A stretch of DNA of 58,408 nucleotides, filler included, from Dugesia japonica (taxonomy: Eukaryota): assembly GCA_001938525.1 (NCBI GenBank). It is 6 parts of 6 records of this genome, joined end to end, with 100 filler letters (N's around TTAATTAATTAA, not from the genome) between each part and the next. Parts side by side here need not be neighbours in the genome. Positions count along the whole stretch, not along the records: positions 17,577 to 29,137 come from MQRL01594293.1; 5 more parts are not named here. One strand, written 5' to 3'. The position numbers and the translations under genes were made by a program. The stretch's first letter is position 1. Each line of letters opens with the position of its first letter. The notes below the pieces were generated by a model, which did no database searches, was not told the origin of the DNA, and worked only from the letters and a program-made list of their open reading frames with translations. Below, piece by piece: positions 8,942 to 38,200 of this stretch.

Positions 8942-8985
8942 NNNNNNNNNNNNNNNNNNNNNNNNNNNNNNNNNNNNNNNNNNNN

Positions 8986-10190: not shown

Positions 10191-10229
10191 CAAATGATAA
10201 AAATATATTTTATAAAAAACTTAACCATG

Positions 10230-11799: not shown

Positions 11800-12912
11800 A
11801 ACAAATTTGATCAAGTAATTTACATGGTTTTTGCCATCTTAAAGGTAAATTCGGGATCCCATCTTTATAAAAGGTGGATGACTTAGATACAAAGAAATTG
11901 TCCAGGGTGGTTTTGATCTTTTCTTCTGAATATTTTTTCCACTCTGGTAATTTTGAAGATACATAAACAAATGATAATCTGAAGGAGCGATGATGTCAGG
12001 TAATAATGCTGGATTGAGGAAGAACTTCCAATTCTAATTCTCCAATCTTTTACAATTTGAGTTTTGTCATGTTGGATGATGACATTCTTTCTATTGGTCT
12101 ATACTTTGTNNNNNNNNNNNNNNNNNNNNNNNNNNNNNNNNNNNNNNNNNNNNNNTTGTATGCATTATAAGTTGTAACTAAACTTTGTCTTTTGCATTAG
12201 CACTGATTCTTTGGTTTTGAATATTGACATAAAATTCACTAATTTTAAATGAATCTGAAGTATTCGTCTTCCAAGCTAATCTTTCGGTCATTAAGTATAG
12301 TTTTCCTTCAGCTTTCTTGAACGAAACATGATTGACAATTGTTACAATGTCTTCGGTTGAATTGGCTTTAAGTGACATTGTTTCTGTTATTAAACTATTG
12401 ACATTCCTTCCTGATCTTGTATTTTTCAATTCAGCTTCCAGTTTTCCTAACTGCTCCCAGCAGATATTTCTTATGATAGATATTTTTTGTGGAAAAAATT
12501 CAAAATGTGACACTGCAATAATGCCACTAAACAGAAATCATTATCTGGCAGAGCGAAGTCCTGTTTTGGCCAGGTGGTAGCCACTGCTTTTTCTTTTAAT
12601 TTCAACATAAAACACCCATTTTTCATTTCTTGTCACAAATCTTTTTTAAAAAGTTTTCTTTTTTGAATTCGGAAAGAAAAGAAAAACAAATGAAAATCCT
12701 CTTCTGTTTGTTGCTTTCACTCTGGCAATAAGTAACCAATCTTTATTCACTTTGTCTAATTGATAAAGATGATTGACAAAAGTTATGTAAGAGACCCGTA
12801 AGCGATATCCTAATTCCCTTGTTGTAACCTTTGGGTCTTTTTCAATAGTAGTCAATAGAGCTTTGTGATCCAGATTTGAAAATTTTCCTCCTCTTATTTT
12901 CAAATATATCAA
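11800..12912 (-). mobile_element. Decayed mariner transposase interrupted by a GTF2H1 fragment
   Basis: IEKDPKVTTREL, FVTRNEKWVFY, KRKKQWLPPGQ, HFEFFP..CWEQLGKLEAELK; after the insert TNRKNVIIQHD, PDIIAPSDYHLF, FYKDGIPNLPLRWQK. Confidence 0.88.
12156..12378 (-). pseudogene. GTF2H1: TFIIH subunit p62 N-terminal PH-domain fragment
   Basis: MSLKANSTEDIVTIVNHVSFKKAEGKLYLMTERLAW..FKISEFYVNIQNQRISANAKDKV*LQLIMHT versus p62 ([47 protein letters not shown]). TAG sits at the conserved Gln; the fragment runs into a gap. Confidence 0.85.
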
Positions 12913-12964
12913 AATCCCTTCTTTTAGTTATGAAAGATCGATAGAGCAAACTTGTTAACCTGTC

Positions 12965-14831: not shown

Positions 14832-16789
14832 GTAAGTCATTGCTGGGCTCAAATTATTTAAGATCTCAGCTTAATTCTTTCGTAAATTGATTGCCATTTT
14901 AATATTTGATTTGAAAATTGATTGTAAATTAAAACAATTGCAATACTTATATAACATAATAAAAAATTTGGATTATTTATTTGTAGGGTAATGCAAAAGT
15001 ATGTATATTGTAATCATTATAATAATAAATATTATATTTATAAAATTTGAATGAAATATTTTAAATTTAATTTATTTAAGATAATAATAGATAATAATTT
15101 AAGTATTCACTAACAAATGTTGTTTATTAAGCAATATTTGAGAACAATGAACGCTAAAAGGGTTATGAAGAATTTAGCTGAGGAACTCTCTGTCAAATTT
15201 CTTTTCAATTATTTTTTCAGTATTTTCAAAAATATCATTTCCTTCATTGATATCATTCGATATAGAATTAAAAGCTGCGCATAAATGGCCCTAAGGACTA
15301 ATATTGGAAAATGATTCCTTTATGATGAAACATTGGATTTTGTTTAGAGTAGGTAGACTGTAACGCTCTGGATCACGTCATCATCAAAAATTAAAATCTA
15401 AAGATTGTGATACTAATTTGATGAAACAAAGTAAGCCTCGAAGCCCAACAATAATTTAACTATTTGAATTTGCCATTCATTAATTTAAAATAACAAATCA
15501 GCAAAACTGTATTTATTATAATTTGTCATTAAAAACCGAACTTGAACACATAAAATAGAAATTAATTAAAATTCTAAATTATCAATTTTCATAATAAATA
15601 TGTCAATTTATATCTACAAATCAATAAATCTTGAACACAAAATGAACTCAACAATTTATTGAATAAAGTTAATCAATAATCGAAATTATTTACGGAATTA
15701 ATTGTAAATAGTCGCCTTTTTTGAGGAATTTTCAATTGATCATTTTTCAGTCCATTATCAATTGTTTTATTATTATGTGATTTATCATTATTACACATTA
15801 TTTCATTAATATTATCTACATTTTGAGAATAATTCTTTGAATAACCAGTAGATAAACTATCGTAGAAATGTGGAATATTATCTTGGACCTTCATTAATTA
15901 TTAAGTTTATTAATCTGATTGATCTATTTCAATAATCAATTGTGCGAAGCAATTATAATTTCAATTTATGGAGAAAATAAAAAAACAGACAATTTCACTA
16001 GTTATTGTGTAGTTAAGAGAGTATAGAATCCGGGGATTATTAGTGGCGAGATACCGTGATCACATCATTATTTAAATTAGTAAACATTATGATTTTTGTT
16101 TAAATCAACTGAAATTAATGATTTAGTTTTTACGGAAATTCGGGGGGGAAGCCTATTTTTTGTTTTAATTCTTCAAGAAATTAACAAAATTTTGTAATTT
16201 TTAAACATATGGTTATTTTTACATCAATCGATTCAGAAAGAAACGATCAATGGTTACGTCCAACAATTATTCTCGCAATAATTCTTGCAATAGTAAAAAA
16301 TTGATAACAATAAATTAATTTCATGGAAACAGACTTTTTTATATTTTTTTTGGTGTTTTAATGGGATTTTACCGCAACATTCAAGGTAAATACAAATGCG
16401 TGTATCAGTTTTCATAAAGTGAACCGGATCCGGGATTGATAGATTTACGATCCAGAAATTCCGAATTTGTTTTCCATAGTTGGAAATAGTAAAAAATTTA
16501 ATAATCGAGTAATTTTCAATTAACTCAACAGATAATTCCAATACAATGAATTATTTAAACAAATTTTTTAATTAAGGAATACGAATTGCTACTTATACAG
16601 AATTTTCTTAATATAAAACTTGCTTATATAGAGCACTTACTGTGTCTAAATTTGTTTTAATTAAGCCGCAGTTTAAACTAATCAATACCAAAAATCTTTA
16701 TACCAAGAAATTGGAAAACAAGAATTTCGAGTGCTCTTAAAACATTATTTAAAACATTAAAGACTATTCGGGATCAATCGAAATGATTC

Positions 16790-17330
16790 GTAAATGGTTT
16801 ACAGAATTTTCGTTAAGGCCATACAACTCGCAGATAATTACGAATGTCTTGAATGCCCAATAGATTTAATAACACACGAAATGATTCGAAAGATCTTATA
16901 TGATTGTCAAATGAAATTGTACGAGCTAGCTAAGGTTTGTGGGAATTTCAATAGGATCAGTAATTACAATTCTGCATAAAAATTCGGGAAAAGATGCCGC
17001 CCTTTATCACAATTCACCAAAAACACGAGCGTATGCGCTGTTTGAAACAATGTTTGGCATTGCACAAACGCAATTTTAATGAATTTTTTCGAAGTTTTAT
17101 TATTTTTGATAAAACTTGGATCCACCCGTAGACACTTGAAACAAAAAATAAATCAAGACAGTGGAAAAATTAGGCAAACCAGCTGCGAAAAAATGATGAA
17201 GAAAACTGCATCTGCTGGAAAAGTTATGATTGTTATATTTTGGGATTCACGTGGTGTGTATCTTATCTATTACTTTGTAAAAGGAAAAACAATTACTCAG
17301 GAATTTTTTGGTGCATTATTGGTCCGCTTA
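16790..17330 (+). mobile_element. Decayed mariner fragment, Himar1/irritans-like
   Basis: MKLYELAK, ASAGKVMIVIFWDSRGVYLIYYFVKGKTIT (compare SAGKVMASVFWDAHGIIFIDYLEKGKTI). Confidence 0.8.
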
Positions 17331-17520
17331 ATTCAGTCGTTTTCTACCCTTTTGTAGATTCCCATTAACCTTTTATGGACACCATGTGGAGCACGTTGGG
17401 AGCTCCTATATTAATTTAACGAAGTCTACACAAAAAAAATTAAATTCATCATTCAGTAGTCGTAAGAGAATGTTGTNNNNNNNNNNNNNNNNNNNNNNNN
17501 NNNNNNNNNNNNNNNNNNNN

Positions 17521-17532
17521 TTAATTAATTAA
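17521..17532. other. Artificial scaffold-joining linker
   Basis: TTAATTAATTAA between N runs. Confidence 0.95.
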
Positions 17533-18659
17533 NNNNNNNNNNNNNNNNNNNNNNNNNNNNNNNNNNNNNNNNNNNNGTTACATTATTATATGGTCAATGT
17601 TACTTAATTATATGGTATATGATGTTTAAAGAATTTCTTTTTAAAAATTTCCATCTTAAAACTTTCGTTTTAAAATTTAATTTCATAAAAATTAACTTTA
17701 CCATTGATCTGTGTATATTAAAAAAATATTTTGAAAAACAAATTTAAATAAAGTTTATTTTTAATTGTAAAGATCAAAACGATATTTAAAGGTTCCATTA
17801 ATATGGCAAAAAATGTGACAAAGATGTCTAATATGTTCTAAATAATATAAAATATAACATGTATTGAATAAGTAACAGTTGAGTTAGAATTCCTTGACAT
17901 TTTGCTGTTACGAGTTTAGTCAATTATTGACGATGATGACTGATTGTTTTTAAACAATTGTAGCGGTGTTCAATTTATAACCGGATGTGACCGGACGGAG
18001 GCACTGCTACCAGAGATGCACATACCGTAATCGAGTTTAACTTACTTAATACTACGCAAGTTGATCGATAAGTTAAATTATGAACTAACTCGATTAGATG
18101 CTAACAGACCTTGATGAATTCGCTCCGTCGAACTGTACATGCTGGAGAAGGTATTGCAATGGTATGGAAGGAAATCTTTGAAAATATTTAAAAATTCAAC
18201 GATCCAATTCGAAAATTTTTTAACCAATAAAACAAAATTTTTTTTTCATCAGGAAAACATAAATGTTCTCACCACTTGGTATATGTTGGCAACGAATGTG
18301 GAGGAGGTGATGTACATTAATCTACCTACTCGAGAATTCTCAAGAATTTGAAAATTATCTGTCGTTTCTCGAGAATTAAAATGTCAAAAATATGAGAAAA
18401 CCTAAAAACTATTTAAGTCAAAAGTAAACGAAAATCGCGTGTTGCTGTATCAAACTTTTACACCACGGATTTAATACGCTAGTAAGACGCGATTAATTAA
18501 TTATTAAAAAATTAAAATTAAAACCAATTATAACTGCTTGGTATTTTAATATTTTTATGAATATTTTGTTTTAATCAGTCACAAATAAAAGTTATACAGA
18601 TTACTAATAAATAATCTTCATTTATTCCTGTTATTTCTTTTTAAAAAAAACAATAATAA

Positions 18660-18856
18660 ACAATTTCAATAATTGCGAGAATAATTGAGGACATAACCAT
18701 TGATCGTTTAACAGAATTCCTTTAAAATAAAAGCTTCGATCAAACTTTTTTGTTTTTTTATTGATATTTGATAACAATTCGATATTTTGACTTAGTCTTC
18801 TTCAGAAATTGAAATCAATAAAAAATCAAAAAAATTTATCGAAGCTTTTATTTTAA
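18660..18856. mobile_element. Foldback/MITE-like dispersed repeat (second copy ~39680-39870)
   Basis: Inverted arms TAAAATAAAAGCTTCGAT / ATCGAAGCTTTTATTTTA. The upstream block TTGCGAGAATAATT..CATTGATCGTTT is shared with ~39690. Confidence 0.6.
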
Positions 18857-19439
18857 ATGAATAATAATAAACCTCGATTTTATTTTAATTAATATTAAAT
18901 CTTTTAACCGATTGATCATTATTAATTGTTACTATTTTTACTGAATTAACATTTGTTGGGCTGAAACAGCACAGATCGCTAAAGAATTATAGCTTCTATT
19001 ATATTATTTTTTTTACGCATTACTCGTCTATTAATAGTGGGTACCCCTTTGAGTAATTACTCACGCAATCATTTATCTGCGTTGTTTATTTATTATCTCC
19101 TCACATACACACTCAATAATTTATCTGCGTGAGTAATTTTTTTCTTCCCGCCCCCAGCGCAGCTTTTATTTAATGTCAAGCGGAATCGAGGCCCATGCAC
19201 GCGACAAAGCACAACAGGGGAGAAGTTAAATAGTGTGCACTAGGGCGAAAAAAGACACGCACAGAAATTATTGCGTGAGTAATTACTCAGAAGGACTTAC
19301 CGTGGGTGCGCATTACTACTAGTTGAGTAGTGCGCAAATAAAAAAAGCGCAGAGCGCAGTTAAATAAAACGTGGGGGATCGGAAATATATAATGCGTAAT
19401 TACACGCGTAATTCCGTTAAAATATCATAATTAATAAAT

Positions 19440-20716
19440 ATGGGTAGCACAATAGAGAATTCGTTAAATGAGACAACAGATTCAATAAAACCACTATTGA
19501 AAAGACCAATCGACGGCGGCAATGGTGGAGGATATGAAACTTTTAAACCGGTCGAACCAAGAATACCATTACAAGTAACAAGATCAAGTTTTAGAAAATA
19601 TCAAGAAGAATATAATAAATATCTGGAGGAGTTAGGAAAATGGAATAGAAATAAACAATAATGGATAAAGAAACACTGTAAATAATACACGCGTGAAAAG
19701 AAGAAACAAGAGAACGAATAAATTTATTCGAAAACATGCAAGATTATGAAATAAGGAAAGTAATAACATTTACCGGCGATGAAAGAAGATCATGGAAAAA
19801 GTTGATAGAAAATGAAAAAATCAAAATATACCATTAACTAAGAAAGGTGATATAGAATAATGGATTTACATAGAAAAGAACTAGAGAATGAGAAATTGAA
19901 ACAATTAGAAAAACATAAATTAGATAAAGAATATAAACCAAGTAAAATCATTAAAGACATGCACATGATGAAAATAAAGATGGAAACGTTGAAGAATAGA
20001 TTAAATAAAAGTTTACCACACGAATACGAATCGATAAAAAAATTCCAAAAGAATTAAAAGAATCATTAGTATATTTCGAGAAATAAGATGGAGTAATAAA
20101 TCATCATGAACAATGGTTGAATAACAATCCATTGGAAAGAACAAATTCAATAAACAAATGAAATTATTCACGGAAAAACAAAATAAACCCCCGGGATATC
20201 TGAAAAAGAATATGCATAAATTCACGGGATTTCTATTAGGAGGACTGAAAATAATGGGAAAATCGGTACAATCGCAATAATCGACTCATTAATAGATCTA
20301 GGATTCAGTGGTATAAAAGAAATACAATTATTATGGTCAATACGAAGCTCATAATGTCATTACCGGATAGGATAGCACGTTGGGGGCAAACAAAAGATTT
20401 TACAATGCATGATGTCGTTAAACATATAGAAATGAAAAGACAATTTCCGAAATCAAACATTAAAAGATGGTATTCATATTGAAAAAAAACATGAAAACAA
20501 TTACGATCAATATTATAAAGAAGATCAACCATTAAAATGGGATTACGATTGCGATAAATAAAACCTAATGTATAAATAACAGCAAGAACAAGAAAACCAA
20601 AGTATTCCGAAGAATCAGAACACAATTTCTATTGGTCATTAACAAGTGCAGAATTGGAAAAATATAAAAACATCGTATATTATTACGAACCACCACCACA
20701 ATTCCTATTCATGTAA
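19440..20716 (+). pseudogene. Decayed ORF of unknown function inside copy B
   Basis: ATG at 19440, then K/E-rich coding-like segments (19440-19661, 19860-20057, ..FYWSLTSAELEKYKNIVYYYEPPPQFLFM*) broken by stops and frameshifts. Confidence 0.4.
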
Positions 20717-20796
20717 ATATCTTTCTTTATTTTGTCAAAGCAGGTTTTCCAAAATTATTTATTATTGAGTAAAAATATTATTAATTTTTCAAAAAG

Positions 20797-21100
20797 AATT
20801 CGTGCCGGTCCAATGATCACAGATTTCATTGGCACAGTGCACGCTCAAACGAAACATTGCTCTACATAAAATTATGAAAACACATGCATAGGGTGAGCAC
20901 TGCACTTTATGAAAACACCGAGAGATCTATGACGCCGAGTGAGCACCGGTAATCATACATAAAGCCAAAAAGATACACAAAAGGTAAATGATAAAATGAA
21001 AAATAAAACATGACCAAATGTAGACTTTTCTCCAGAATCTGCTAGTGAAAAGTTGAAAAAGTGAAAAGTCAAAATTTTAAGTTTGCAGCTGGGTATAAGA
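20797..21100 (+). promoter_or_regulatory. Conserved promoter-like module of the element family
   Basis: CGTGCCGGTCC at 20801, GGGTGAGCAC at 20891, GAGTGAGCACCG at 20937, TATAAGA at 21094; same order in the two other copies. Confidence 0.5.
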
Positions 21101-22321
21101 CAGTGCAAAACTTCATAATTTCAGCTTAAAATTTTCGATATAACTCTTGCTAACTTATCAGTAAAAGTTGCAAGTAGTTATAATTATCTTTAAATTCTTC
21201 GGAGAGAATCAGAACAAAAGTAAGTTATTGAATTGTTATTTATCCTAAATACAACTATAAAGGAAGGCTGAGGTAATGATCATCACTCATTAGCTTTGCT
21301 GCCAGTGGTGGTCATCACCTTTCAGTTATCCGCTTCACGAGATCATCCACCAATTATTGATAGTGATTATGAGATGTGATAGATATTGATGATTATGAGG
21401 AATGTGATAGATGAGTTATTATGAGAGACATGATAGATGAATTATTATGAGGGAGGAAAGATGATAGCTTGAAACTGTAAATGCTATTGCTATGATAGAC
21501 GAATTATTGTGAAAGATGATTACTGTTCACACGTATGATAGATGAATACGGTTAATGGTCATTATATTATTAAAATGATGATAAAACTGGTGAAGAGATA
21601 TGATAGTTATGAGAGGTAAACATGAGTGAAACGATGTATATTGAAACAATGATTATGAATGAAATGAATTAAACATGGCAATAAGGCGAGTGTTAATGAT
21701 ACTAAAAACATTGATGAGTGGTTTCTGAATTTTGTCTTTTATTAAATGTTACTTTATTATTACGGTTGTAATTGTTGATGAAAATATTAATTCAAATTTT
21801 TATTAATCATTCTACTTTTGGTTTCCTTATATTACATATTATTGCTTATTCATTATAACTCATATGATAGTTTAATGATTAAATTGATAATAAATACTAA
21901 TAGCGTTATTACATTTAGTAGTTGGATATGACAATGCCACTAACCGGAGAACCATTCGTTATTTGGAGGGAGATGAATTTTTGAAATGTAATGTATGAAT
22001 TAATCAAAATTTATCGAGATGGTTTGGGCAAGATATGGTTACATAGAGATTTACTGAGAGATAACAGTGGTGACAAGGTACCCATGTTATATGAAGTTTA
22101 AAATAACATTGATAGATTCAATGCATGAAGTAGAAGATCCAACTCCATCCACATTGACGAATGATCAATGATCTGCTGGATTTATGGTAAATATATTACA
22201 AATTTAACTCATTAATTAAATTGATCTTCATTTATGAGACGTAAATGTCACCGAGTATTATAAATAATTGTATTATGATTTTATATAAACCTAACCATGG
22301 AAAATACTATTTCGTAATTAG

Positions 22322-22851
22322 ATGTCTCGATATATAACGAAATCAGTAGCAAAAGAATCATTGAAAGCCGGAGGGTATTCATTCCAATTAACTTCTTGTA
22401 ACAATATGCCAGTCTTATGAGACTCACTCGAGCCTATCGGCATCGATGTGGAGCCCTGGGGATCACCCAGGACTAACTGCGAATAAAGAATGAGGAAATT
22501 AAAAGGCTGAAGACAGACATGATTCGATAAAAGCAACAACACACGGAAAAACTCCAACTGATTGGCCATTTACAAATCCGTGTCTATCAACAAGAACAGG
22601 AATATGAGAAACAGCTCGTAAAGGTAACATCATGGCAGCAGGAGCGAAAAAAGGAATTGGTCACTTTGCTGATTCGGACCACGGATCTGGCTAAACAACG
22701 ACACCTAATTCAGGCAATGTTGACGACACAAACGGAAGCAGAAGAGTATAGCAAACTCACAAAGAGGTTGGCAACAAAAGTGGAGACAATTCTACAACAA
22801 GTTCTTAAGCCGTTGGACGAGATTGATATTCTTAAAGAGACAGCTGTGTGA
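22322..22851 (+). pseudogene. Coiled-coil coding exon of element copy B (disrupted)
   Basis: Acceptor ATTAG at 22321. MPVL*DSLEPIGIDVEPW..LLIRTTDLAKQR..EAEEYSKLTKRLATKVETILQQVLKPLDE is homologous to 57223-57705. Confidence 0.6.
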
Positions 22852-23161
22852 TCAAATTTTTCTTTGAACCGCACTATATAGAAAGTTTTGTTCTTATGCT
22901 CTTTATTTTTATTCGTGAATAGAAATAATAATATAAATGTTCATTGTAACGATAAGTAATCACAATTATTATGACAGGGAAGATAAAAAATATGATGAAA
23001 GATAAACTCGATAATAATGCAACATAAATTTATTATCTTATACCTGTCGTTTACGAATTTAAAGATTTCCTATTATTAAATTATCATAAAGCAAATTATA
23101 AATTGCATTATCATTGAAAATATAATCATAAAACAAATATAATATTTTTCATTAATTTCAG

Positions 23162-23466
23162 TGTCAAATGCAAGATTACAGCGATGGCCGATCTGCAGAA
23201 GAAATGGTGTTTGATGCACAAGAAATTACAANNNAAGATCACAGAATTACAACATAAAAATGGACAGCTCCGAGATTTAAAAAATCGATTAAAGGAACGA
23301 GATCTGGCACTCTCGCAGACATGTCGCATGATGGCGGACATAATTAAAGCTTACGCGAATAGAGAAGTGACAACAGTCCGAACGCTGGCTCAAGTACCCA
23401 GGATCTAAAAGGAGACCATAAAGAAGAACAAGGAAGTCATCGACCAGGACGACTTTAATGACATAA
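23162..23466 (+). pseudogene. Second coiled-coil exon of element copy B
   Basis: Acceptor TTTCAG|TGTCAAA conserved with 57883. DLQKKW..KLQ.KITELQ..RLKERDLALSQT..TVRTLAQ is homologous to 57884-58200. Confidence 0.6.
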
Positions 23467-25269
23467 AGCTTTCTTATAAAGAATTGATTTAATTTATGAT
23501 TATCATATATTAATAAAAATGACACCAGAGAAATAAGAGCCAAAAGAAATCGAAATTGTAAACACAAGACGGGATTCAACATAGCCGCACAAATTTCTGT
23601 GGTTATTAGGTATCATCCCAGACATCGAATTAAATCGGAATTACGAAGTTTCGACCAGGAGAGAAGTAATCAGATTAACATCAAAAGCCTAGTAACCCAA
23701 CACATTTAACAAAAGATTCTAATTAAAACAAATTTCATCTACACACAACTAAACAAACAAACGCTCTTACTGCTAAAATCTTTATTAATAATAAAATAAA
23801 ATTTAATTATTCAACAACCAGATTATATAAAAAAATCCTCAATAATGTCGTGTACAACAAAAGGAAATCAGGAGAAACGACACACTATACTTATCTTTCG
23901 TAGCTTGAACTCAACCCAACTTTTATTACATTAAGCTCTCACTTCCTTTGTCTCACTATTATTTTATTGAATTGCTACCTTATACTTATAAATTATTTTA
24001 AGTTTTGTAGAAATAACTTTTCACCACTTTAAATCATTGTTATATTATAGGAGCAGTCTAATCATTTTAAACCAGTTTCGTTTAATCGAAATACGGTCAT
24101 CATTTGTTGAACTAATATCATTTTGTAAAAATACTCCTTTAAAGTTTTAAATCAGTATAATTTAGTTTAAGTTAACAAATAGCATCTTTCACAGTATATA
24201 ATAATCTTTCATAATCTAAATTTTATTAATTCAATTTTCCGTAGTTAAAAAGAATCATTTTTCATAATTTAACATTCAATAAATTCAATCTTAATTTAAA
24301 AATAATCTTTCGTAATTTAAAATTCATTACATGTTAGCCGAATTTGATGTTAATGATTTAGACCTTGATTTCAGTCATTAGAAATTAATTGTCCCGTAAG
24401 TTACAAATTAATACACCCAATATTGAATTAGTCTTGCTGTATTAATAGACGATCTATCGAGTGGAATTTTGCAGATCATGCACAAGCTGCATTACGCGTT
24501 TGTAATTTAAATGGAGATTATTATAAGATATTCAAACAAATTATTATATTATTACCAAAAAAATGAAAGCTGCCTTATGTAACCTTAATTTTTATTATTT
24601 CTACAATTTTTCAACCTTTCTAAACTACCTTTAATATATTTTTTGTCCCATGCACTCGTAAATTAAAAATGAATTAGTTATTTAATCTTTAACCATAGAT
24701 CTGTATTTTATCAAAAAAGTTTTCCAATGCAAAGATCAAAATTGTTTTTTTCTATTTTATTAGATTGTTCAATATTTTGACATAATTTTTAACAGGTACA
24801 ATCCTCGAAATATTAAATATAAAAAACACAATTTTTTTGGGATTTCCAACTAAAATGCTAGTTTATATAGTCTGACTCCTTGAATTCAGGTAAACGTCTG
24901 AAGTTTATAATTAATTCAAAATCGTTCATCAATAATATAAAATAAAATTGTGTAAAATTCTGAAATCACAAATCATTTTTTAGCCAAATTTTCTATACAA
25001 CAATAAAAGTTTTAATAAAATTGTTACATAAAAAATCAAGTTACACAAAATATATTCAAATAATTTTGTTTAATTAAATTAATATATTTTTCCTTTAACG
25101 GACCATTTTAAATTTATTATCATTATTATTACTACTATTATTTTATGTTAAAAATTGTTACATTTAAGATGAAAATGGCACACTAACCGGACAATCACTA
25201 TGCTGTATGTATTATTATTTCTTTAATTTTTAGATAATTGATTTTTTAAATTTTTATTAATTATAATTT

Positions 25270-25324
25270 CACGTCGGTAACTACTGCCGTTACCCTGATG
25301 ATGGCCATGGCAGGCCGAAACGTG
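25270..25324 (+). ncRNA. Type III hammerhead ribozyme
   Basis: CACGU-C | GGUAAC-UACUGCC-GUUACC | CUGAUGA-U | GGCC-AUGGCA-GGCC | GAA-ACGUG. Full core, three perfect stems, GUC cleavage triplet ending at 25275. Confidence 0.85.
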
Positions 25325-27704
25325 CAGCAACAATTGGATTTGTTTTGTTATTTTGGGTGAGTTGACTTTAATTTTCATTTAACATTTCAATTTGTAACTA
25401 ATATATTTGTGATTAATATAATAATATTGATATTTAAGATTATAATAACTTACAACTCAAACTATATAATTATTCTCACACAAATCATTTAACTATTAAT
25501 CGATTTAATTTACGTTAAATAACCTCACAAATTGCAACTATTGTTAATCGAAATTACCGAATTAAAATCTCAAAAAAAGAAATTGTAGAAAAATTGAGAA
25601 TGAAAATTTAATTTGTTACTTTGGTGTTTGATGAAAATTGTGATTAGAGATATAAATTTTGATGTAATTATTGTAATATAATAATTTATAATTAATATAT
25701 TTATTTATATTTAAATTTTACAATTTAATAATTAAGTGGTAAAATTTGAAGTATACACTATTGCCGCAGATGTAATCTTTCGAAAAACATTAATCTGAAA
25801 CGTGTTTTGTGACTTGTTTATGATCTTTACGCAATATTAAATTCTTGAAATACAACTGTTAGTTGCATATTCAAAATTTTGATCTTAATTTGTTTAGCAT
25901 GAAAATTGATGAAGTATTATAGATATTATTTTCGCGATTTAAATTTGAAGATTAAGCTTTTTAATAATCAATTTAGAAATATAAATTTAAGTTAAACAAT
26001 AATCGTAACATAATCATTATATTTACTTTAAATCGTTTTTAATGCTTATTATACAAACGTTTATAACATTACATTGCTTTCTATTCAGTTATAAAATGAA
26101 CCTATTTTTCTTAAATTCAGAATTATGGAATGTAATATTTCTTAAAATAATAACTAATTTAGTTAGGTGTCAACTGGAAATATCGGGTAAACCTAGATTG
26201 AAATGTTTCTTTAAAAAGACGTTTTCTACTAATGAAAATTAAAACTGCATTCTTTAAATTCCAAAACTAATTTATATTAATTACTTACTTTAATAAGTAG
26301 TTTATTGTTCATTTTAGTATTTATTGTATCTCGATTTATTATTTCGAGATACATCAAAAGTAATCAAGTGAATATTAATAGAGATATATTAGTGATTCAC
26401 AAATTTAGTTTTTCCACGTAAGGAGTAAAATTTACGTGTNNNNNNNNNNNNNNNNNNNNNNNNNNNNNNNNNNNNNNNNNNNNNNNNNNNNNNNNNNNNN
26501 NNNNNNNNNNNNNNNNNNNNNNNNNNNNNNNAATTTTTTTTCCAATTATTATCTGAATTCAAACAACCTTTTATTAATTACAAAATTAAACTAAACTAAA
26601 AAAAATACTGATTAACACATTCGCTACAGACCACATGGTTTGCTCCAACTAACCAATGACTAAAATATAGAGGCATATTTAATCTATTATTTATCGGTGA
26701 AGTCTATTGCAACTGAATACATATTAAGTAGTAAAGCTATGGCTCATACTTGAGACATCAAAATCCTATTTTGGCTAAATCAAACCGGATTTCATATTGG
26801 AATCAGTTTTGTGATCAAGTACAAAAATATTTTGGGTCTATAGAAAANAATGTCATTTTACACTTCGATGGCGAACGTTTTGAGCACCTTTATAAATCTT
26901 CGTCACAAAATGATCAATAAAAATTAATAACAAATAAATGCTCATGAAAGATACTTTCCTTAACTTTTAAAACCAACAATAAAAGAAACAAAATAATAAT
27001 GTTGGGACAGACCACAACCTATATTGAAATTCATGATCTTAATGCTAATTAAATAAACAGAACCCGAAGAAAAATGACAATAATTAACAACAAATGGATA
27101 TTATTCCCGAATAGACAATAAATAAATAAAGGTTGAAACAAATTTCTACGTAAGCCATGGTGTTATTCCACCAAAAATAAGGAAAAACAATTACATCGAA
27201 CAATACCCAAAATTAACTAGAACTTTCCAAATAGAAGAATTCTTTTCATAGAAATTCCATAGTTTTATATTCTATAGCAAACTTTAGAAAAGGAGGAATT
27301 TCACTGAGAGCGAAACTTTTATTTATTTTAAGACTGCGGGAAAATAAAAAATAAATCGAGAAAATGATCGATTAAAACAATAAAATAGGCGAATAAACCA
27401 ATGAACAAGCCCCTTACTCGGGAAAAACAAGTATAAATGTGACCNACAAATCCAACAAAAATACCTATAATCATAATCGTCTTTGTTACCAAGTCAATGT
27501 TTTTGAAAAATAACTAGGCGAATAATAATCACCAAAATTCGAAATTCTAAGTGACAAACTCTAATTGCAGTAATTACCAAGTCCACTGAAGCAATTATCA
27601 ACCAGATTCAAATAATCAGCCTTGTCTCTAGAAAATTGCACTCAAATCCGATCAATTAATCGAATTCAGGAGCAGTAGATCGAGTTACTATTTATTGCAG
27701 TCAT

Positions 27705-28900: not shown

Positions 28901-29181
28901 TAAAAATGTAGTTTACTCAGACNGTTTTTTATAAAATATGTNTCATCATTTATTCTGAAAATNAATATCATTGAAATAAAAAAATTTAACTTCATAAATA
29001 TTCATATTTATTATTTGGAACATTTCAACGAAGTAAATTATCAACAATAAACATAGATTAACAATAATTTAAATATGGCACATAAAGTTAATTAATGCCT
29101 CATTTAGAGGATTTTTATTGAAGACTAAAACCACTTTNNNNNNNNNNNNNNNNNNNNNNNNNNNNNNNNNNNNNNNNNNNN

Positions 29182-29193
29182 TTAATTAATTAA
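29182..29193. other. Artificial scaffold-joining linker
   Basis: TTAATTAATTAA between N runs. Confidence 0.95.
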
Positions 29194-29960
29194 NNNNNNN
29201 NNNNNNNNNNNNNNNNNNNNNNNNNNNNNNNNNNNNNAAATTTATTAGTTATACTTTGCGGTAATATGTTTGCTACTTTTGAAATCACACTGGTAACTCC
29301 GTATGTAATGATGACATAACATTTCCAAGTTCAGCTAATGTATTTGATTTCAATGTAAGTAGTATTTTATCATTATTAGCTAGTACATACTGAGCTGTTT
29401 TCATACCAAAAGAACCAATACGTCTAAGAATAGGCAAATCAAATCTCCCTATTGTTCATAACCACCCAGATCCATACTGTTTTCCAAGAAAGTAAGGTAA
29501 TTCTCCACCTGCNTGATTAGTACTATACAATGATACAATATCAGGATTCATTATTAGATCCTGGCGCACTGGAAAAAAGACCCCTCCACTGAGGTAGAAA
29601 ATTTTCAAGATAAGTGTTTTAGTATACTTCAGTCGAATTGGCTGAAATAATATAAGGTCGAATTTTCTAGGTCAGTGGTACAGTATACTCAATTATAATT
29701 GGTGATATATTTCAAGGTCGAATAAATGTAGGTTAAATGAACCTAGGTCAAAATTATTTTCATGGCAGCTATCATCTCGGCAGACTTCATATTTAAATTC
29801 CCCGCACAAATTTAATATTTAAATTTCCAGGGCATACTTCATATTTAAATTTCCCGCGCAGACTTAATTTTTTTTGTTTTAATGTTTAATTACTTTTGTT
29901 TAAATTAATTGATTTTTATCGCTAGTTTAAATTTACTGATTTATGAGATTTTTATTTAAA

Positions 29961-30141: not shown

Positions 30142-30183
30142 ACAATTGTTGGTATTAATTGTTGGCAATTAAATATAGAAGTA

Positions 30184-31455
30184 TTAGGTTGTCACATATG
30201 AAATGTCCGATTTTAGAACTCGTTTTTTAAACTAATATAATTTTATGTATTATTTAACATTTAGAACTTATTTATATATCATTTTGAAGGTGAAATGTTT
30301 GATTATCATTATATAATATTTGTTTCAAAAACCTATTTATTTAAATTATTTTTAGACAGCATGGAACACAAGCTAAACAATACGGAAATGCGAACATTAT
30401 TTTTATATGAATGGAAATTAAAGCACAACCCAACAGAAGCTGCCCAAAAAATTAATTTTGCATTTGGAGAGGGTTCAGCTTATGAAAGCACTCTTCGGAG
30501 ATGGTTCGACAAATTTCAAAAGTGTGATTTAACCCGGGTCAATTTGGAGAGGGGGCGCCCCAGGGTTGTCATTAGCAACGACGATATAAAACGTGAAGTG
30601 GAACTAAACACTAGTCAATCACTATGACAACTTAGTCAAACGTTAGACGTTAGTCATCAAACAATTTCCCGTTATTTGAAAAAAAAGATGGACTAATGGG
30701 TTCCTCATTTATTGAATTATTCCCAAAAATTGCAAAGATTGAAAATTAGCCAAATGCTGCTGGATCGAAATAAATCGGAATCTTTTTTAGATCGCATTGT
30801 CACTTGTGATGAAAATTGGGTTATTCGTCACAATTGTAGACGTTCTGCACAATAGTTAGATGCCGATAAACCTCCATTACACTGTCCTAATCCGGATTTA
30901 AACCCGAAAAAGACAATGATGACAGTTTGGTGGTCTATAGCTGGAGTCATACATTTTTCTTTGTTAGAAGAAGGTCAAACTATTAACTCAGACAAATACT
31001 GTTCTGAAATTGAATTAATGCACAAAANATTATGCATTAAACAGCCATTATTGTTCAATAGGAAAGGAATCATCTTCTTGCATGATAATGCTCAATCACA
31101 TGTGGCAAAGAAGACGTCGCAAAAATTGACAGACTTAAAAATTGAAACTTTACCACATCCACCATATTTGCCCGACTTATCTCCGACAGATTATTATTTT
31201 TTTAAACATTCTGATAATTTTTTGGTTACAAAAATCATTGCTGATCGGGAGGATGTCAAAATGGTCATATCCGAATTCATAGACTCCAGAGAAAAATATT
31301 TATTTGCTAATGGTATTTTGAAACTAGTTTCTAGATGGCAAAAAGGTGTAGAATCTGATGGTGATTATTTTACTTAAATATAATTTGATTTTATTGGACT
31401 TTTATTGATTTTATTGTCTATTACGTAATCGGAAATTTCATATGTGACAACCTAA
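30184..31455 (+). mobile_element. Full-length 1272-bp mariner (Hsmar1/cecropia-like) inserted into the Polinton remnant
   Basis: 29-bp TIRs TTAGGTTGTCACATATGAAAT(G/T)TCCGATT at 30184-30212 and 31427-31455; TA duplication on both sides. Confidence 0.95.
30361..31377 (+). pseudogene. Mariner DD34D transposase with in-frame stops
   Basis: WVPHLL, IVTCDENW, TVWWS, HDNAQSH, YLPDLSPTDYYFF, LVSRWQK; three premature stops. Confidence 0.95.
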
Positions 31456-31545
31456 TAGTACTATTATAAACTCATTCTAAATAAACAATGGGTGGTTTAC
31501 AATCATTACCTAATTTTGATTTAATATTTTCATCAAATTGTTGTA

Positions 31546-32538
31546 ATGGGCAAGCTGAAGAAGATATGAACAGACGCAGAAAATCCCGCAGGTTTTCGTG
31601 GCGTTGAAAAATTGATGAAAGCAGCACAAAAATCAAAATCAATGACCAAAAAGTGGTTATCTAGTCAACTGGCATACAGTTTGAACAAACCAATGTTGAA
31701 AAGATTTCCAACAAGAGCATATAAAATGTTCGGTATTGATGCTTTATGGCAAATAGATATGATGGAGATGATCCCATATTCAAAAATAAATAAAGGATAC
31801 AAATATATTTTGACATGTATTGATGTATTCAGTCGATTTGCAAGAACAATTCCAGTCAAATCAAAATCCGCAAATGATATAGAACCGGCAATTAAATCAA
31901 TGTTTAAAGATGGACATCCAGATAACTTACAAACACAGTTGGGTAAGGAGTTTTACAACTCTAAAGTAAAAAATCTCTTATCACATCTAAAAATAAACCA
32001 TTACACTGTATTCTCTCAGTATAAAGCAGCACATGTAGAGCGATTTAATCGTACATTAAGAGCCGCCTTGAAAAACTACTTTGTGCAAGCCATAAATGTT
32101 TAAATGGAGCAAGACCTCTTGATGTAAGTTCAAACAAAGAATTAACATTATGGTTATCACGTGATCAAAGTAAAGCAAATAAGAAGCCAAAATATAAAGT
32201 CAGTGATCATGTTAGAATCTCAAAAATAAGTGCATCTTCATTCATTAAAAACTTTGATAGTAATTGGAGCGATGAAGTGTTNNNNNNNNNNNNNNNNNNN
32301 NNNNNNNNNNNNNNNNNNNNNNNNNNNNNNNNNNNNNNNNNNNNNNNNNNNNNNNNNNNNNNNNNNNNNNNNNNNNNNNNNNNNNNNNNNNNNNNNNNNN
32401 NNNNNNNNNNNNNNNNNNNNNNNNNNNNNNNNNNNNNNNNNNNNNNNNNNNNNNNNNNNNNNNNNNNNNNNNNATGGATATCAAAAACCTACTTGGATAT
32501 TAGCATCACAGTTAGTTAATAATGAACAACGTGAATAA
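31546..32538 (+). pseudogene. Polinton/Maverick retroviral-like integrase with chromodomain-like end
   Basis: NPAGFRGVEKL, WQIDMMEM, YKYILTCIDVFSRFA, LQTQLGKEF, VERFNRTL, KYKVSDHVRISK, NWSDEV, GYQKPTWI. Confidence 0.92.
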
Positions 32539-32870
32539 TTTTCTATATACTTTTACCTAGTAATAGCTGTCCTTTTATTAATCCGAATAATAATGCTAGC
32601 ATTTTCATGGTTGAGCTTCAAAATCCGATTTATACGGATGGTAGTTGGGAGGTAGCATTGTTAGATTTTACCTTTGTATATCAAACATTTTCATTATATA
32701 GTAAATCTAAAATTCATTACATGAAATAGAAAACCATAACGAAATAAATAACTATAACAATTAATCACAAAGAAAAGTTGTTGAGAGTCAATCAAAATGA
32801 TCATATTGCTATACGTGATAGGACCGTTATACTTATATATTGTGAATGTCCGTATAAAATCATAATTTCA
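32522..32870 (+). pseudogene. Polinton minor capsid protein (PX/penton) N-terminal fragment
   Basis: ILLPSNSCPFINPNNNASIFMVELQNPIYTDGSWEVALLDFTF matches LPSNS..NN..F.V.L..PI.L.G.WEVAL. Confidence 0.75.
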
Positions 32871-32904
32871 ACAGTTCAGTGCTAAATCAATAGCAAATAA
32901 TAAT

Positions 32905-34313
32905 TTGGATCCATTAAATTTTTTTGGAATCCCGGGTATCAGTTGGGCATCGGCATTGATGTCATCAAAAGAGCCTATTGAACTGTTGATGGACAATGAT
33001 ATGTATGCCTTTTTCGAAGGTGGTATACGCGGCGGTCTAACATTTGTAAATAAGCACTATGTTGCCTCCGATGAAAAACAGAATTATTTTATATGGATAT
33101 CAACAATCTATATGGATGGGCGCTAAGTCAAAACTTGCTCTATGCTGATTTGGAGTGGGTTTATACTGGATTAGAAGATATTATGGATGAATGTAAATCA
33201 GCAGACTTGGAGTCACTACCATATGGATTCATATTGGAGGTGGACATGGTTATTCCAGCCGAGATATAAAATAAATTGAACGATTTACCTGTTGCAGCAG
33301 AACATCAATGTCCTCCAGGGTCAAAAGTAAAGAAATTATTACTGACTCATTACCCGAAAATTAATTATGTTATACGCTGGAGGCTGCTGCAAATATACAT
33401 ACAATTGGGAGTACAGGTAACTAAGGTTCATAGAGCAGTCAAATTCAAGCAAATTGCGATTTTTGAAGATAATATTAAAAATAATACAGTACTGAGATCA
33501 CAATGTACAACAGAATTGGAGAAAAATTATTATAAGCTATTAAATAATAGTCTGTACGGTAAGTCTGTAGAGAATTTGAAGAAAAGAATAAATTTGCGCT
33601 TGTGCAATTCAAANNNNNNGCTGATGACATATACGTCAAAAGCTAGTTTTAGGAAAACTATAAAAATAGATCAGGACCTAATAGCTGTTCTTCTCAACAA
33701 GGCTATTGTATGTTTGGATCGACCGAGCTACATCGGATAGACTGTACTGGACCTATCAAAACTCCGTATGTATCAATTACAATACAATCAGTTGGAAAAG
33801 TATAGGATAGAAGAAAATTGTACAATAACTATTGTAGCCGGCGATACGAATAGTTTTTTCCTTGAGGTTGTAAAAATTAGTTTGGAAAAACTAACCAGAT
33901 TAATTGTGAGAGATCAGTTATTGGATACATCTAATTATAGCACAAGCCATTCTCTTTACTCAAATGATTTAAACAGTGCCATCGGAAAATTCAAGGATGA
34001 GAGTAAAGAGAAGAAATATAAATAGTGAATATTTTAAAGGCCTAAATGTTATACCCTACTTAGCGATAAGGAATCCTGTAAAGCTAAGGGCATAACATTA
34101 AAAAATAGCGGCATTACACATCAGTCATATATTAACTGTTACAATAATAATGAGGCTGTCATTGTAGATCAGTTTCAAATATCCACTCGTAATCATCAGC
34201 TCTACAGTATGAAAAGTAAAAAGATAACTCTATCCAATAGGGAGGATAAAAGAATGTGGATAGAGAATAATAAAGGTATACCGTACGGACACCATAAATA
34301 TATAAATAAATAA
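32905..34313 (+). pseudogene. Polinton protein-primed family B DNA polymerase, C-terminal part
   Basis: PGISWASAL, GIRGG, YMDINNLYGWAL, KLLNNSLYGKSVEN, AGDTNSFF, GKFKDE, KAKGI, DKRMW..PYGH. Confidence 0.93.
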
Positions 34314-35739: not shown

Positions 35740-37580
35740 GAAATCCGTAATTTTATTCTTTTATTATTATCCTTGACTTTTGATTTGATTTCTTGCAAAA
35801 CACTTGATTTTCTCTTCAAATTCATCCCGTTTCTTTAGTTCTCCGAGTCTGTCGCATCTTCTTCTTGATTATTACTGATATTACCTAAAATTCATTTCAT
35901 CTCGTTGATCTATTGATGTTTATTCGTTATTCTACAAGAACAAATATTCGAGTATCAGTTTGTTGTTTCTCTGACTACCCNNNNTTCTGCCCTCGTCTCA
36001 TTCGAAATTAATTCCTTCACCCGATGTTTATTCGATATTCTTGATAGAGAGAGAAACAAAATCTGCTTGATATTACTCTGGTATTTTGAATCTCAACTCT
36101 ACCTTTTATTCAACTTATTTTTAATCACTGATGTTCATTGCCGATTCATCTCAGTAGTCGATCCGAATTAGCCGTTGCCGACTCCTTCGACTCAACCACT
36201 TCGATCTATTTCAACTGTTATTTAACAATTCCTTCATTTCGCTGATTGTACGATAGTTGTTCCTAGTGTCAACAAACAATCACCTTTCTGGTGTTACATA
36301 GTGACTTGCTCGTATACACTGATTCATTCCATCGTTTAATTCATTTATTTGTATCATTATTATATTCATATTGCTGTTTACTGTGTCTTAATCTTGCTAC
36401 TCATCGTGCCTGAGCCTTGCATTTCTAACTCCGACAAGATTGATAACACGATCTTACACTTCTGTTTCATAATTTTGATGTTCATAGTGTTTTTATCTTG
36501 TTAACCGATCCGGAACAGTCTTTATCTTTCTAACTTTCCCGGACAGGCCAACACGATGTTTCACTTTGCGTTGATATAGTTCAGTTTAAATTCCACTTCC
36601 ATTACTTACATGATGCCTCTGACAACTCCAATTTATCATCACTTACCCGATAATGTTTTTTTTGATCGTACTATTACTACAAGTGTGATAACTCTGAATT
36701 CGTCTATTAATCATTTCATCATCTCACAGTTGTTTCATCATTATTCATTTTTGTGTTCTGCATGTTCAATCTCTGCATGTTTTGTAATACCTTTATGCTC
36801 ATTTTAAGTCAAGATGTTAAATTTCCTAGTGTAAAATCATCAATCTCTTTGTTATTCTTGCTGTTAACTCAACAATCTCATTATTAATGTTAGCTCAGCT
36901 CAATAAAAATCTAAATAATGAAAATAAATAAAATGACTGGCGTTGCCAGTCAACGATGTGCATCTTCTCAGTCTTCCGCTCATTTTAAAAACATTAAAAT
37001 TTACTTTGCTATCCTGGTAATCGATCGATTTGATGCTTTGATGATTTACACTTCTTGACTTTTTTATATCTAGATTTTTTCGGTCTAGTTTTAGTTAGTT
37101 TTTTGTGTTTTTGTTGTTTGTTTTTTTTGTTAGAATGGTCTCTCCTTTTAAACCATTCTGTATTGTCAATTTTGACATTTGATGTAGGTGTTATCTTGGA
37201 AAAAGTTTAATAGTCACTCAATCGTGCGGTGCTCACTCGCAGATTCTTCTGTTATACCTTAATATAGACATGATTATTATTTCACTTACTGTCTCGCATT
37301 GAATAAGTATAATTTTTTATTTTTCATATGACTGCCGGTGCTCAGGCGGCTTCATAGATTTTACATTGTTGATGTGTATTTGATCTATTTTCAATTCATT
37401 CGTAGATAGATGCACGGTGCCCACCCGATACATATAAATCTAATTTACCTACGATGTGCCGTGCTTACCCGTCACATATTTTATACTAATATTTGCTGGT
37501 TATAACGTGCAACGGTTTCAATACAATCTGTGATTATTGGACCGGCACGATTCAACTTTGAAAAATAATAATATTTATTG
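35740..37580 (-). mobile_element. Partial inverted copy (C) of the TG...CA element family
   Basis: Reverse complement carries CGTGCCGGTCC (37539-37549), four GTGAGCACCG-like motifs, TGTCAAAATTGACA, MSGRLRRCTSLTGNASH (from 36983) and an RLIR..TTEMNRQ coiled-coil remnant. Confidence 0.7.
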
Positions 37581-38188
37581 AAATAATAATAATTTCTGTT
37601 TTCTTGGTTTTTAAATATAAATATAAATTTTAACATGAATTAATATAAATAATTTAATAAATTTTTTTTTCCTATTTAACGTTTAACGATCTTTCATTAT
37701 CTGTAACTCTTATTTCAAAATACCAATTCTTTCTAGATAATTAATAATATTTATGTAATTAATAATAATTTTAGATAATTTCTACATTCTACAAATAAAT
37801 TTCCAACTATTCTTGCTAAATCTCACATTAACTTTGAATTACTTTTAATAATATCGGCCTTTATTTTCTTAGTTCCTGTTAATTATTTTAAATTAGTAAT
37901 ATTCAACTAAAAATAATAATAATAATTTTACATTGTATTTAGTTAAATACCTTTATAATAATAATACTATTTTCCAACTCATCGTATAATAATTTTAATA
38001 CATTTTAAATACAAATACCTCGTTGATCTATTTTACATTTCTTTTCTATGATAGTTTCACTTAATTTGCCAAAAATCTTTTATTAAATTATTTTGTTTTA
38101 ATCTTAATTTTACATTAATTACTTATTATATTCCGAATATCCTTNNNNNNNNNNNNNNNNNNNNNNNNNNNNNNNNNNNNNNNNNNNN

Positions 38189-38200
38189 TTAATTAATTAA
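38189..38200. other. Artificial scaffold-joining linker
   Basis: TTAATTAATTAA between N runs. Confidence 0.95.

What the first reader, a model, noticed from the sequence alone, without database searches (positions are those of the whole stretch)
25270..25324. Type III hammerhead ribozyme with complementary loops in an animal-like genome
Seen: stem III CACGU/ACGUG, GUC cleavage triplet, stem I GGUAAC/GUUACC, core CUGAUGA plus one extra U, stem II GGCC/GGCC, then GAAA. Loop 1 (UACUGCC) and loop 2 (AUGGCA) contain complementary UGCC/GGCA, which could form a kissing interaction. Established: loop 1-loop 2 contacts make natural hammerheads fast. Metazoan genomic hammerheads are mostly type I (Penelope-like elements, non-LTR retrozymes), while type III is typical of plant retrozymes and viroid-like RNAs. 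No Penelope ORF or tandem partner is visible nearby. Inference: an active or recently active self-cleaving motif from an undescribed retrozyme or retroelement.
Basis: partly seen in the sequence, partly recalled or inferred. Interest (0 to 1): 0.72.

Follow-up and report, generated by a model that had tools for sequence, protein, structure and literature searches.

The report
Phage-style hammerhead ribozyme in flatworm DNA
A complete "hammerhead" RNA motif, built like those found in bacterial viruses and predicted to cut itself, sits here as one of several scattered copies in what is likely a flatworm genome; it likely marks a small, undescribed mobile element, but its cutting is untested and no RNA from this copy was seen.

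Summary
The type III hammerhead is really there (25270-25324, +), exactly as described, and is not chance (0 of 200 shuffles). It has a 6-bp stem I, an extra U after A9, a GGCC/GGCC stem II and complementary loops (UGCC/GGCA). That build matches a compact type III subclass of phages and bacteria. A model built only from 43 such sequences scores it 66 bits, and loop-loop pairing is over-represented in that set (17 of 48 loop pairs, 4.7 expected). Reads tie it to AT-rich host DNA. A TFIIH p62 fragment points to a flatworm host. A DNA run shows at least five other contigs sharing only the ribozyme and a short 3' tail, so this is a dispersed family. No tandem partner, LTR or Penelope ORF lies nearby. 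Against activity: no RNA reads in three runs, and a competing fold 3.4 kcal/mol more stable when the pseudoknot is not counted. Best reading: the ribozyme part of a small retrozyme-like mobile element, carrier unknown. Isolated type III hammerheads are already known in insect genomes, so this is a new variant, not a new kind.

The parts
25270..25324 (+). Type III hammerhead ribozyme motif (55 nt, 58% GC in about 25% GC DNA)
   Evidence: 66 bits; Rfam RF00008 35.2 bits
25270..25274 (+). Stem III 5' strand CACGU (pairs with 25320-25324)
   Evidence: sequence
25273..25275 (+). GUC triplet; predicted cut 3' of C25275
   Evidence: sequence; established hammerhead chemistry
25276..25294 (+). Stem I (6 bp, GGUAAC/GUUACC) with loop 1 UACUGCC at 25282-25288
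   Evidence: sequence; stem I of 6 bp in 36 of 49 prokaryotic homologs
25295..25302 (+). Core C3-A9 (CUGAUGA) plus an extra U at 25302
   Evidence: sequence; U at this place in 42 of 49 homologs and in 46 of 146 hammerheads not selected for stem II
25303..25316 (+). Stem II (GGCC/GGCC) with loop 2 AUGGCA at 25307-25312
   Evidence: sequence; GGCC/GGCC is the commonest stem II, 25 of 146
25285..25312 (+). Predicted pseudoknot: UGCC 25285-88 with GGCA 25309-12
   Evidence: loop-pair test on homologs, 17 of 48 with 4 or more pairs vs 4.7 shuffled, 0 of 10000; not shown for this copy
25317..25324 (+). G12-A13-A14, then stem III 3' strand ACGUG
   Evidence: sequence
25325..25346 (+). 3' tail shared with other genomic copies (to 25363 in one contig, to 25393 in another)
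   Evidence: table 8, records 3-6 and 8
25221..25230 (+). Left copy of a 10-bp direct repeat CTTTAATTTT; possible target-site duplication, not established
   Evidence: as long or longer at 11 of 250 random positions
25366..25375 (+). Right copy of the 10-bp direct repeat; would bound a 135-nt insert
   Evidence: one paralog alignment runs past it to 25393

Best explanation
This is a complete type III hammerhead motif and one copy of a dispersed family in a likely flatworm genome; it is likely the ribozyme part of a small, non-coding, retrozyme-like mobile element whose RNA would cut itself after C25275. Shown: the motif, its link to host DNA, and other copies that share the ribozyme and a 20-40-nt 3' tail but not the wider flanks. 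Inferred: a transcript folds stems I-III, loops 1 and 2 pair (UGCC/GGCA) to hold the stems parallel, and the core cuts at GUC, leaving 2',3'-cyclic phosphate and 5'-OH ends. Inferred further: cut RNA is re-joined (for example circularised) and reverse-transcribed by an autonomous retroelement's enzyme, which would explain why inserted copies carry an intact ribozyme across the cut site. This copy is a short or eroded insert that looks silent in the RNA data seen.
For: Motif intact and beyond chance. DNA run X3: contig record 1 (24755-25293) and record 7 (25278-25652) join the motif to AT-rich flanks on both sides. Five other contigs of 380-1222 nt align only over 25245/56/68/88 to 25345/46/63/93, with 10-20 differences. 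Summed depth is 1465 and 716 in the two motif bins against a median bin of 48.7. 13 of 24 listed runs, in 7 studies, all one organism, hold the stretch or part of it. Pseudoknot pairing is over-represented in the homologous subclass, and with loops barred from nested pairing the hammerhead is the minimum-energy fold. [quoted passage not shown] Genomic hammerheads of eukaryotes are mostly retroelement-borne (PMC7229834, PMC7761336, passages). A marginal 10-bp direct repeat flanks 135 nt.
Against: No retrozyme hallmark was found: no second hammerhead in 58 kb, no tandem repeat over the motif, no RT or endonuclease nearby. The direct repeat is marginal (11 of 250 random positions) and one paralog aligns past it. 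In three RNA runs (about 6, 25 and 25% of each read) 6, 52 and 3 reads were laid, none at 99% identity, 60 of 61 only partly fitting, with no pile-up of ends and no joint. ViennaRNA prefers an alternative fold (-19.9 vs -16.5 kcal/mol) in which the loop pairing extends to 7 bp and breaks stems I and II; only 4 of 49 homologs behave this way. Depth is not a copy number, and the paralogs' sequences were not seen, so their differences may be decay rather than covariation. The carrier is unidentified.
Confidence: 0.5

Rival explanations
1. The ribozyme has been taken over by the host as an RNA-processing signal, for example to cut the nascent transcript downstream of a multicopy gene, and was duplicated along with that gene family.
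For: A roughly 2.9-kb gene-like unit (20700-23575, +) ends 1.7 kb upstream on the same strand and has a collinear copy at 55557-58334 at about 60% identity. Copies that diverged would share a conserved ribozyme but not flanks at 80% identity, as seen. Domesticated hammerheads are published in amniotes (PMC6155905, passages).
Against: The matching position behind the second copy lies beyond the window end, so it is untested. The unit's ORFs have no homologs, so it is not shown to be a host gene. No RNA was seen over 24700-25660.
Confidence: 0.15
2. The ribozyme is a passenger of a DNA virus-like element (Polinton/Maverick type or another endogenised DNA virus, or phage-derived DNA), where it would cut long transcripts ahead of genes as in phages; only the ribozyme remains recognisable here.
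For: Architecture matches the phage subclass (66 bits; 27 identical nt and 34 of 37 with aquatic phage contigs). There 28 of 49 copies precede a ribosome-binding-like site and start codon. An integrase plus DNA-polymerase-like remnant lies 6-9 kb away (the polymerase label is from recalled motifs, Pfam gave no hit).
Against: No ORF or Pfam hit flanks the motif. Nothing outside the motif matches any fetched phage locus. No viral contig carries this copy's stem I-core string (0; the 2 hits are not type III hammerheads). A search of papers for hammerhead plus Polinton/Maverick gave no link (listing only).
Confidence: 0.13
3. The family derives from a viroid-like or delta-like circular RNA that was reverse-transcribed into the genome, as proposed for termite and dipteran genomic type III hammerheads.
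For: Nearly all hammerheads of infectious circular RNAs are type III (PMC13725137, passage). The toad and termite delta-like ribozymes pair GCCR with YGGC (PMC7936874); this motif has GCCG at 25286-89 and UGGC at 25308-11.
Against: Those ribozymes have a long helix I with an internal loop and a 6-bp stem II, both absent here. No opposite-strand ribozyme or rod-like partner lies nearby. No circular-RNA collection could be searched.
Confidence: 0.1
4. This copy is a dead relic: the family once moved, but this motif misfolds or is never transcribed, so it has no present function.
For: Competing fold; no RNA reads; it differs from six other contigs at 25325. This reading is compatible with any of the origins above.
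Against: All core positions, all 15 stem pairs and the loop complement are intact. The model omits the pseudoknot, whose stacking alone is -8.8 kcal/mol before loop costs. Stem I forms first in prefix folds. Two of the three RNA libraries are oligo-dT and would miss short or circular RNA.
Confidence: 0.1
5. Chance match, or a phage or bacterial contaminant in the assembly.
For: The closest look-alikes are prokaryotic; the window is a gapped draft assembly.
Against: 0 of 200 shuffles; contigs of a public DNA run join the motif to its AT-rich flanks; several studies of one organism hold the stretch.
Confidence: 0.02

Closest known systems
Pseudoknotted type III hammerheads of phages and bacteria (Perreault et al. 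2011, PMC3088659; passages and section 6 read; type III part of Dataset S1 cut off)
   Same: 6-bp stem I, 4-bp stem II, Watson-Crick loop 1-loop 2 pairing; extra U and GGCC/GGCC stem II as in the IMG/VR and GTDB examples fetched here; closest L144 at 44 of 56 columns, 27 identical nt with L144, L145, L125, L126.
   Different: Lies in AT-rich animal DNA, has no downstream ribosome-binding site or gene, and is a dispersed multi-copy family.
Isolated genomic type III hammerheads of termites, Drosophila pseudoobscura and other dipterans, and delta-like RNA hammerheads (PMC7936874; passages)
   Same: Type III, isolated in invertebrate DNA with no ORF nearby, pseudoknot with GCC/GGC pairing.
   Different: Those have a long helix I with an internal loop and extra hairpin and a 6-bp stem II; this one is compact (55 nt).
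Plant LTR retrozymes (Cervera et al. 2016, PMC4918200; passages)
   Same: Type III hammerhead, non-coding, multi-copy, often isolated (solo LTR).
   Different: No partner 600-1000 bp away, no LTR, PBS/PPT or 4-bp duplication recognised, low GC; plant loops use non-Watson-Crick contacts.
Metazoan non-LTR retrozymes and Penelope-like elements (PMC7229834, PMC4209133, bioRxiv 10.64898/2026.07.22.740005; passages; supplement file 2 of PMC4209133 searched)
   Same: Animal genome, low GC, multi-copy; Penelope ribozymes also carry an extra base after A9.
   Different: They use type I hammerheads in tandem repeats or pseudo-LTRs. The one Schmidtea ribozyme listed in PMC4209133 is a different, minimal Penelope motif.

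Membership tests
Hammerhead ribozyme, type III | Core CUGANGA / GAAA and NUH cleavage triplet | tested here: met
   one extra U after A9
Hammerhead ribozyme, type III | Stems I and II closed by loops, stem III open | tested here: met
   6, 4 and 5 Watson-Crick pairs
Hammerhead ribozyme, type III | Rfam RF00008 gathering score (48.5 bits) | tested here: not met
   35.2 bits; phage homologs also fall short, 27-36.5 bits in 5 of 10 loci searched
Hammerhead ribozyme, type III | Hammerhead fold is the dominant fold | tested here: inconclusive
   alternative fold 3.4 kcal/mol lower without pseudoknot energy; hammerhead is lowest when loops are barred from nested pairs
Hammerhead ribozyme, type III | Site-specific self-cleavage | not testable with these tools
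   no RNA coverage, so no cut ends to see
Compact pseudoknotted type III subclass of phages and bacteria | 6/4-bp stems, extra base after A9, loop 1-loop 2 complement of 3-5 bp | tested here: met
   the model's training set was selected on 23 bases shared with this motif, so the 66 bits are inflated
Compact pseudoknotted type III subclass of phages and bacteria | Position just ahead of a phage gene | tested here: not met
   28 of 49 homologs have it; no ORF here
Compact pseudoknotted type III subclass of phages and bacteria | Common descent rather than convergence | tested here: inconclusive
   similarity is confined to the 55-nt motif
Plant LTR retrozyme | Two hammerheads 600-1000 bp apart in LTRs | tested here: not met
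   single hit in 58 kb; no long direct repeat at the locus
Plant LTR retrozyme | Abundant circular RNA | tested here: inconclusive
   no reads or back-joints in three runs, two of them oligo-dT
Metazoan non-LTR retrozyme | Type I hammerhead in 150-450-bp tandem repeats | tested here: not met
   type III topology; no tandem array over the motif
Penelope-like element | Type I hammerhead in a pseudo-LTR beside an RT/GIY-YIG ORF | tested here: not met
   six-frame Pfam scan of 18.9-31.5 kb found only a mariner transposase
Delta-like / dipteran extended type III hammerhead | Long helix I with internal loop, 6-bp stem II | tested here: not met
   sequence vs PMC7936874
Dispersed mobile element | Copies at several loci with unrelated flanks | tested here: met
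   five other contigs share only 78-108 nt
Dispersed mobile element | Target-site duplication or empty-site polymorphism | tested here: inconclusive
   10-bp repeat, matched by 11 of 250 random positions; the second allele (record 1) also carries the 5' half of the motif

The most novel reading that the evidence does not exclude
A phage ribozyme was captured by a flatworm germ line and amplified as a minimal 80-135-nt self-cleaving mobile unit, or kept at many loci as a host RNA-cutting signal. That would be a catalytic RNA transferred from phage to animal, and the missing link proposed for the origin of eukaryotic type III retrozymes.
Probability: 0.15. Interest if true: 0.78.

Novelty: new variant of a known kind. 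Interest (0 to 1): 0.5.

Why it matters
Animal genomic hammerheads are mostly type I and tied to Penelope elements or tandem retrozymes. The few published animal type III motifs are an extended form in insects. A compact, pseudoknotted type III family scattered through a flatworm genome fits none of these classes and scores below Rfam's cut-off, so standard annotation misses it. Horizontal transfer from bacteria or insects has been suggested as the source of plant type III retrozymes (PMC7761336, passage). A family like this in an organism with many public RNA runs makes that idea, and the role of isolated genomic hammerheads, directly testable.

Tried and rejected
Whole-genome search: no genome is held for this window, so copies could not be listed or aligned. 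Rfam scans at gathering score and over 1 kb: no hit. Annotated phage records gave only chance-level matches (E 3-9). Exact stem I-core strings in viral contigs: 0 and 2 unrelated. Alignment-based count of the pseudoknot gave only 55.8% paired cells because MAFFT misregisters the loops; the register-free test is used instead. The stem covariation is circular, since stems were the selection filter. Sigma-70 promoter and terminator scan: background level, and not suited to a eukaryote. No tRNA gene. Neighbouring coiled-coil ORFs: no homologs, weak coiled-coil Pfam noise only; the protein atlas did not answer. Target-site duplication: marginal. Papers PMC3004062 and PMC2941103 are not held; the PMC7229834 supplement was unreadable; the type III section of Perreault's Dataset S1 was cut off. 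Earlier-findings look-ups by sequence, genome, relatives and flatworm words were empty.

Full report
Observation. All 15 stem pairs are Watson-Crick. It is 58% GC; about 0.1% of 55-nt windows here reach that. A core pattern matches once, and in 0 of 100 shuffles. A structural descriptor hits once, and in 0 of 200 shuffles. Rfam finds nothing at gathering score or over 1 kb, but gives Hammerhead_3 at 35.2 bits (E 1e-6, cut-off 48.5) on an 86-nt stretch.

Host. No whole genome is held. The window is about 25% GC with mariner, integrase and RT remnants. A TFIIH p62 N-terminal fragment at 12157-12378 (-) is 65-74% identical to three unnamed proteins. In a quick tree of 27 rows, the fragment and four unnamed proteins fall with eight parasitic flatworms on a branch of 97% SH-aLRT. 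The careful search did not finish, the fragment fills 12% of columns, and Macrostomum fell outside. I read the host as a flatworm, likely a planarian; this is inference.

It is host DNA and multi-copy. 13 of 24 listed runs, in 7 studies of one organism, hold the stretch or part of it; one may be the assembly's source. Laying DNA run X3 on 24700-25660: record 1 spans 24755-25293 (5 differences, 6 gaps; likely the other allele) and record 7 spans 25278-25652 (1 difference), so the motif is joined to both flanks. Five other contigs of 380-1222 nt (records 3-6, 8; 8 of 912 pieces are shown) align only over 78-108 nt, from 25245-25288 to 25345-25393, with 10-20 differences. Six contigs read A at 25325. 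Summed depth is 1465 and 716 in the two motif bins, 30 and 15 times the median of 29 bins (48.7). The tool warns that this is no copy number; I conclude at least five other loci, possibly tens. No difference inside 25270-25323 is among the 40 rows shown (22 are hidden, and variants under 3% of depth are not listed). Because few differences are listed in the tail, most of those in records 5 and 6 probably lie in the deep 5' half (stem I, loop 1). Whether they are compensatory could not be seen.

Expression. In RNA runs X14, X15 and X18 (about 6, 25 and 25% read) 6, 52 and 3 reads were laid, none at 99% identity and 60 of 61 only partly fitting. Depth over the motif is below 1, with no pile-up of ends and no joints. 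Two libraries are oligo-dT, so short or circular RNA would be missed. Expression is not shown.

Relatives. The core string CUGAUGA-U-GGCC...GGCC-GAAAC is common in phage contigs, mostly in type II hammerheads. A type III pattern gave 44 viral and 14 prokaryotic-genome loci, and an exact loop-2 pattern gave 4 metagenome loci. Of 56 distinct matches, the window's included, 50 passed a stem filter and 6 were dropped, leaving 49 homologs. Stem I is 6 bp in 36 of 49, the extra base is U in 42 of 49, and 28 of 49 have a ribosome-binding-like site and start codon within 45 nt. Among 48 distinct loop pairs, 17 can form 4 or more Watson-Crick pairs against 4.7 when loops are shuffled between ribozymes (0 of 10000), with alternative pairings UGCC/GGCA, UGCU/AGCA, UCCU/AGGA, AGCA/UGCU and CUCA/UGAG. 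Loops were not used for selection. A model built from 43 of the 49 (six left out; window excluded) scores the window motif 66 bits, the next window hit being 8.7. Pattern-matched type III loci score 48-75 and type II loci 19-31. That score is inflated by the 23 bases fixed in the pattern. The closest homolog is L144 at 44 of 56 columns. Similarity never extends beyond the motif, so descent and convergence cannot be told apart.

Folding. ViennaRNA's best fold of the 55-mer (-19.9) extends the loop pairing to 7 bp and breaks stems I and II; the hammerhead is -16.5 kcal/mol. Only 4 of 49 homologs lose both stems in this way, so this counts against high activity. But the model has no pseudoknot term: the four kissing pairs stack for -8.8 kcal/mol before loop costs, and with loops barred from nested pairs the hammerhead is the lowest fold. 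Prefix folds form stem I first. In a 200-nt context stems I and II are favoured but stem III is not. The point is open.

Surroundings. No second hammerhead, no tandem array over the motif, no tRNA, and no RT or endonuclease in six frames of 18.9-31.5 kb, only a mariner at 30.2-31.5 kb. A 10-bp direct repeat (25221-30, 25366-75) would bound 135 nt, but 11 of 250 random positions do as well and record 8 aligns past it. A gene-like unit at 20700-23575 has a 60%-identical collinear copy at 55557-58334 and no protein homologs; the ribozyme lies 1.7 kb behind it.

Mechanism. Most likely (0.5): the ribozyme part of a small retrozyme-like element. The RNA would fold with the pseudoknot and cut after C25275; re-joined RNA would be reverse-transcribed in trans, leaving dispersed copies with an intact cut site. 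Motif, host linkage and dispersal are shown; folding, cleavage, circularisation and the carrier are inferred. Rivals: host processing signal (0.15), passenger of a DNA virus-like element (0.13), endogenised circular RNA (0.1), dead relic (0.1), artefact (0.02).

Comparison with print. Passages read: PMC7229834, PMC7761336, PMC6155905, PMC4918200, PMC7936874, PMC8557442, PMC6431247, PMC13725137, bioRxiv 10.64898/2026.07.22.740005, and PMC3088659 (also section 6); PMC4209133 was searched, with hits only in its supplement file 2. Pseudoknots occur in about 40% of hammerheads and, in type III, go with a 2-bp stem difference. Isolated type III motifs with a GCCR/YGGC pseudoknot are known in termite, Drosophila pseudoobscura and other dipteran genomes, but with a long helix I; this motif carries the same GCC/GGC pairing in a compact frame. 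That an extra base after A9 is tolerated is recalled from a viroid study whose title alone was seen. Ten paper searches (listings) showed no report of a type III hammerhead family in a planarian. This is weak: two 2010-2011 genome surveys are not held, one supplement was unreadable and Perreault's type III table was cut off. Earlier notes of this scan report type III hammerheads in arthropod, euglenid and fungal genomes (unchecked), which lowers the surprise.

Verdict. Real, multi-copy, outside the defined retrozyme and Penelope classes, with activity and carrier unproven: a new variant of a known kind, interest 0.5.

Noticed in passing
window 12157-12378 (-): TFIIH p62 N-terminal fragment (PF08567) with an in-frame stop at codon 67 and no other p62 exon in the window; likely a pseudogene fragment.
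   Followed up: partly
window 20700-23575 (+), 55557-58334 (+), part inverted at 37143-38132: Diverged multicopy gene-like unit (about 60% identity) with two coiled-coil ORF segments and tandem GAGCACCG motifs upstream; no homolog among 1.84 billion representatives.
   Followed up: partly
window 30175-31464: Near-complete mariner element with 38-bp terminal inverted repeats and a transposase broken by stops; further mariner fragments at 12646-12927 and 17046-17357.
   Followed up: no
window 31570-34313 (+): Integrase (PF00665) followed by a broken DNA-polymerase-B-like frame; resembles a Polinton/Maverick remnant (polymerase label from recalled motifs, no Pfam hit).
   Followed up: partly
window 42236-43400 (+): Broken protease plus reverse transcriptase of an LTR retrotransposon.
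   Followed up: no
window 19500-20700 (+): Broken coding-like stretch with no Pfam hit.
   Followed up: no
window 8986-10195: Satellite of 15-16-bp units, AAATATATATTCAGAC.
   Followed up: no
window 8886-8985, 17477-17576, 29138-29237, 38145-38244, 48659-48758: Five identical 100-base spacers (44 N, TTAATTAATTAA, 44 N): scaffolding artefacts, not biological repeats.
   Followed up: yes
window 24733-24798; 16238-16298, 18660-18872, 39673-39877, 44675-44753: A short high-copy repeat end 470 bp upstream of the ribozyme (depth about 5000), and a MITE-like inverted-repeat family elsewhere in the window.
   Followed up: no
L153/L175 598-654 and 1123-1179; L155 and L179 311-366 and 598-652; L171; L185: Phage and prophage loci with two type III hammerheads 290-525 nt apart on one strand, the clustered arrangement described by Perreault et al.; this subclass scores below Rfam's cut-off.
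   Followed up: partly
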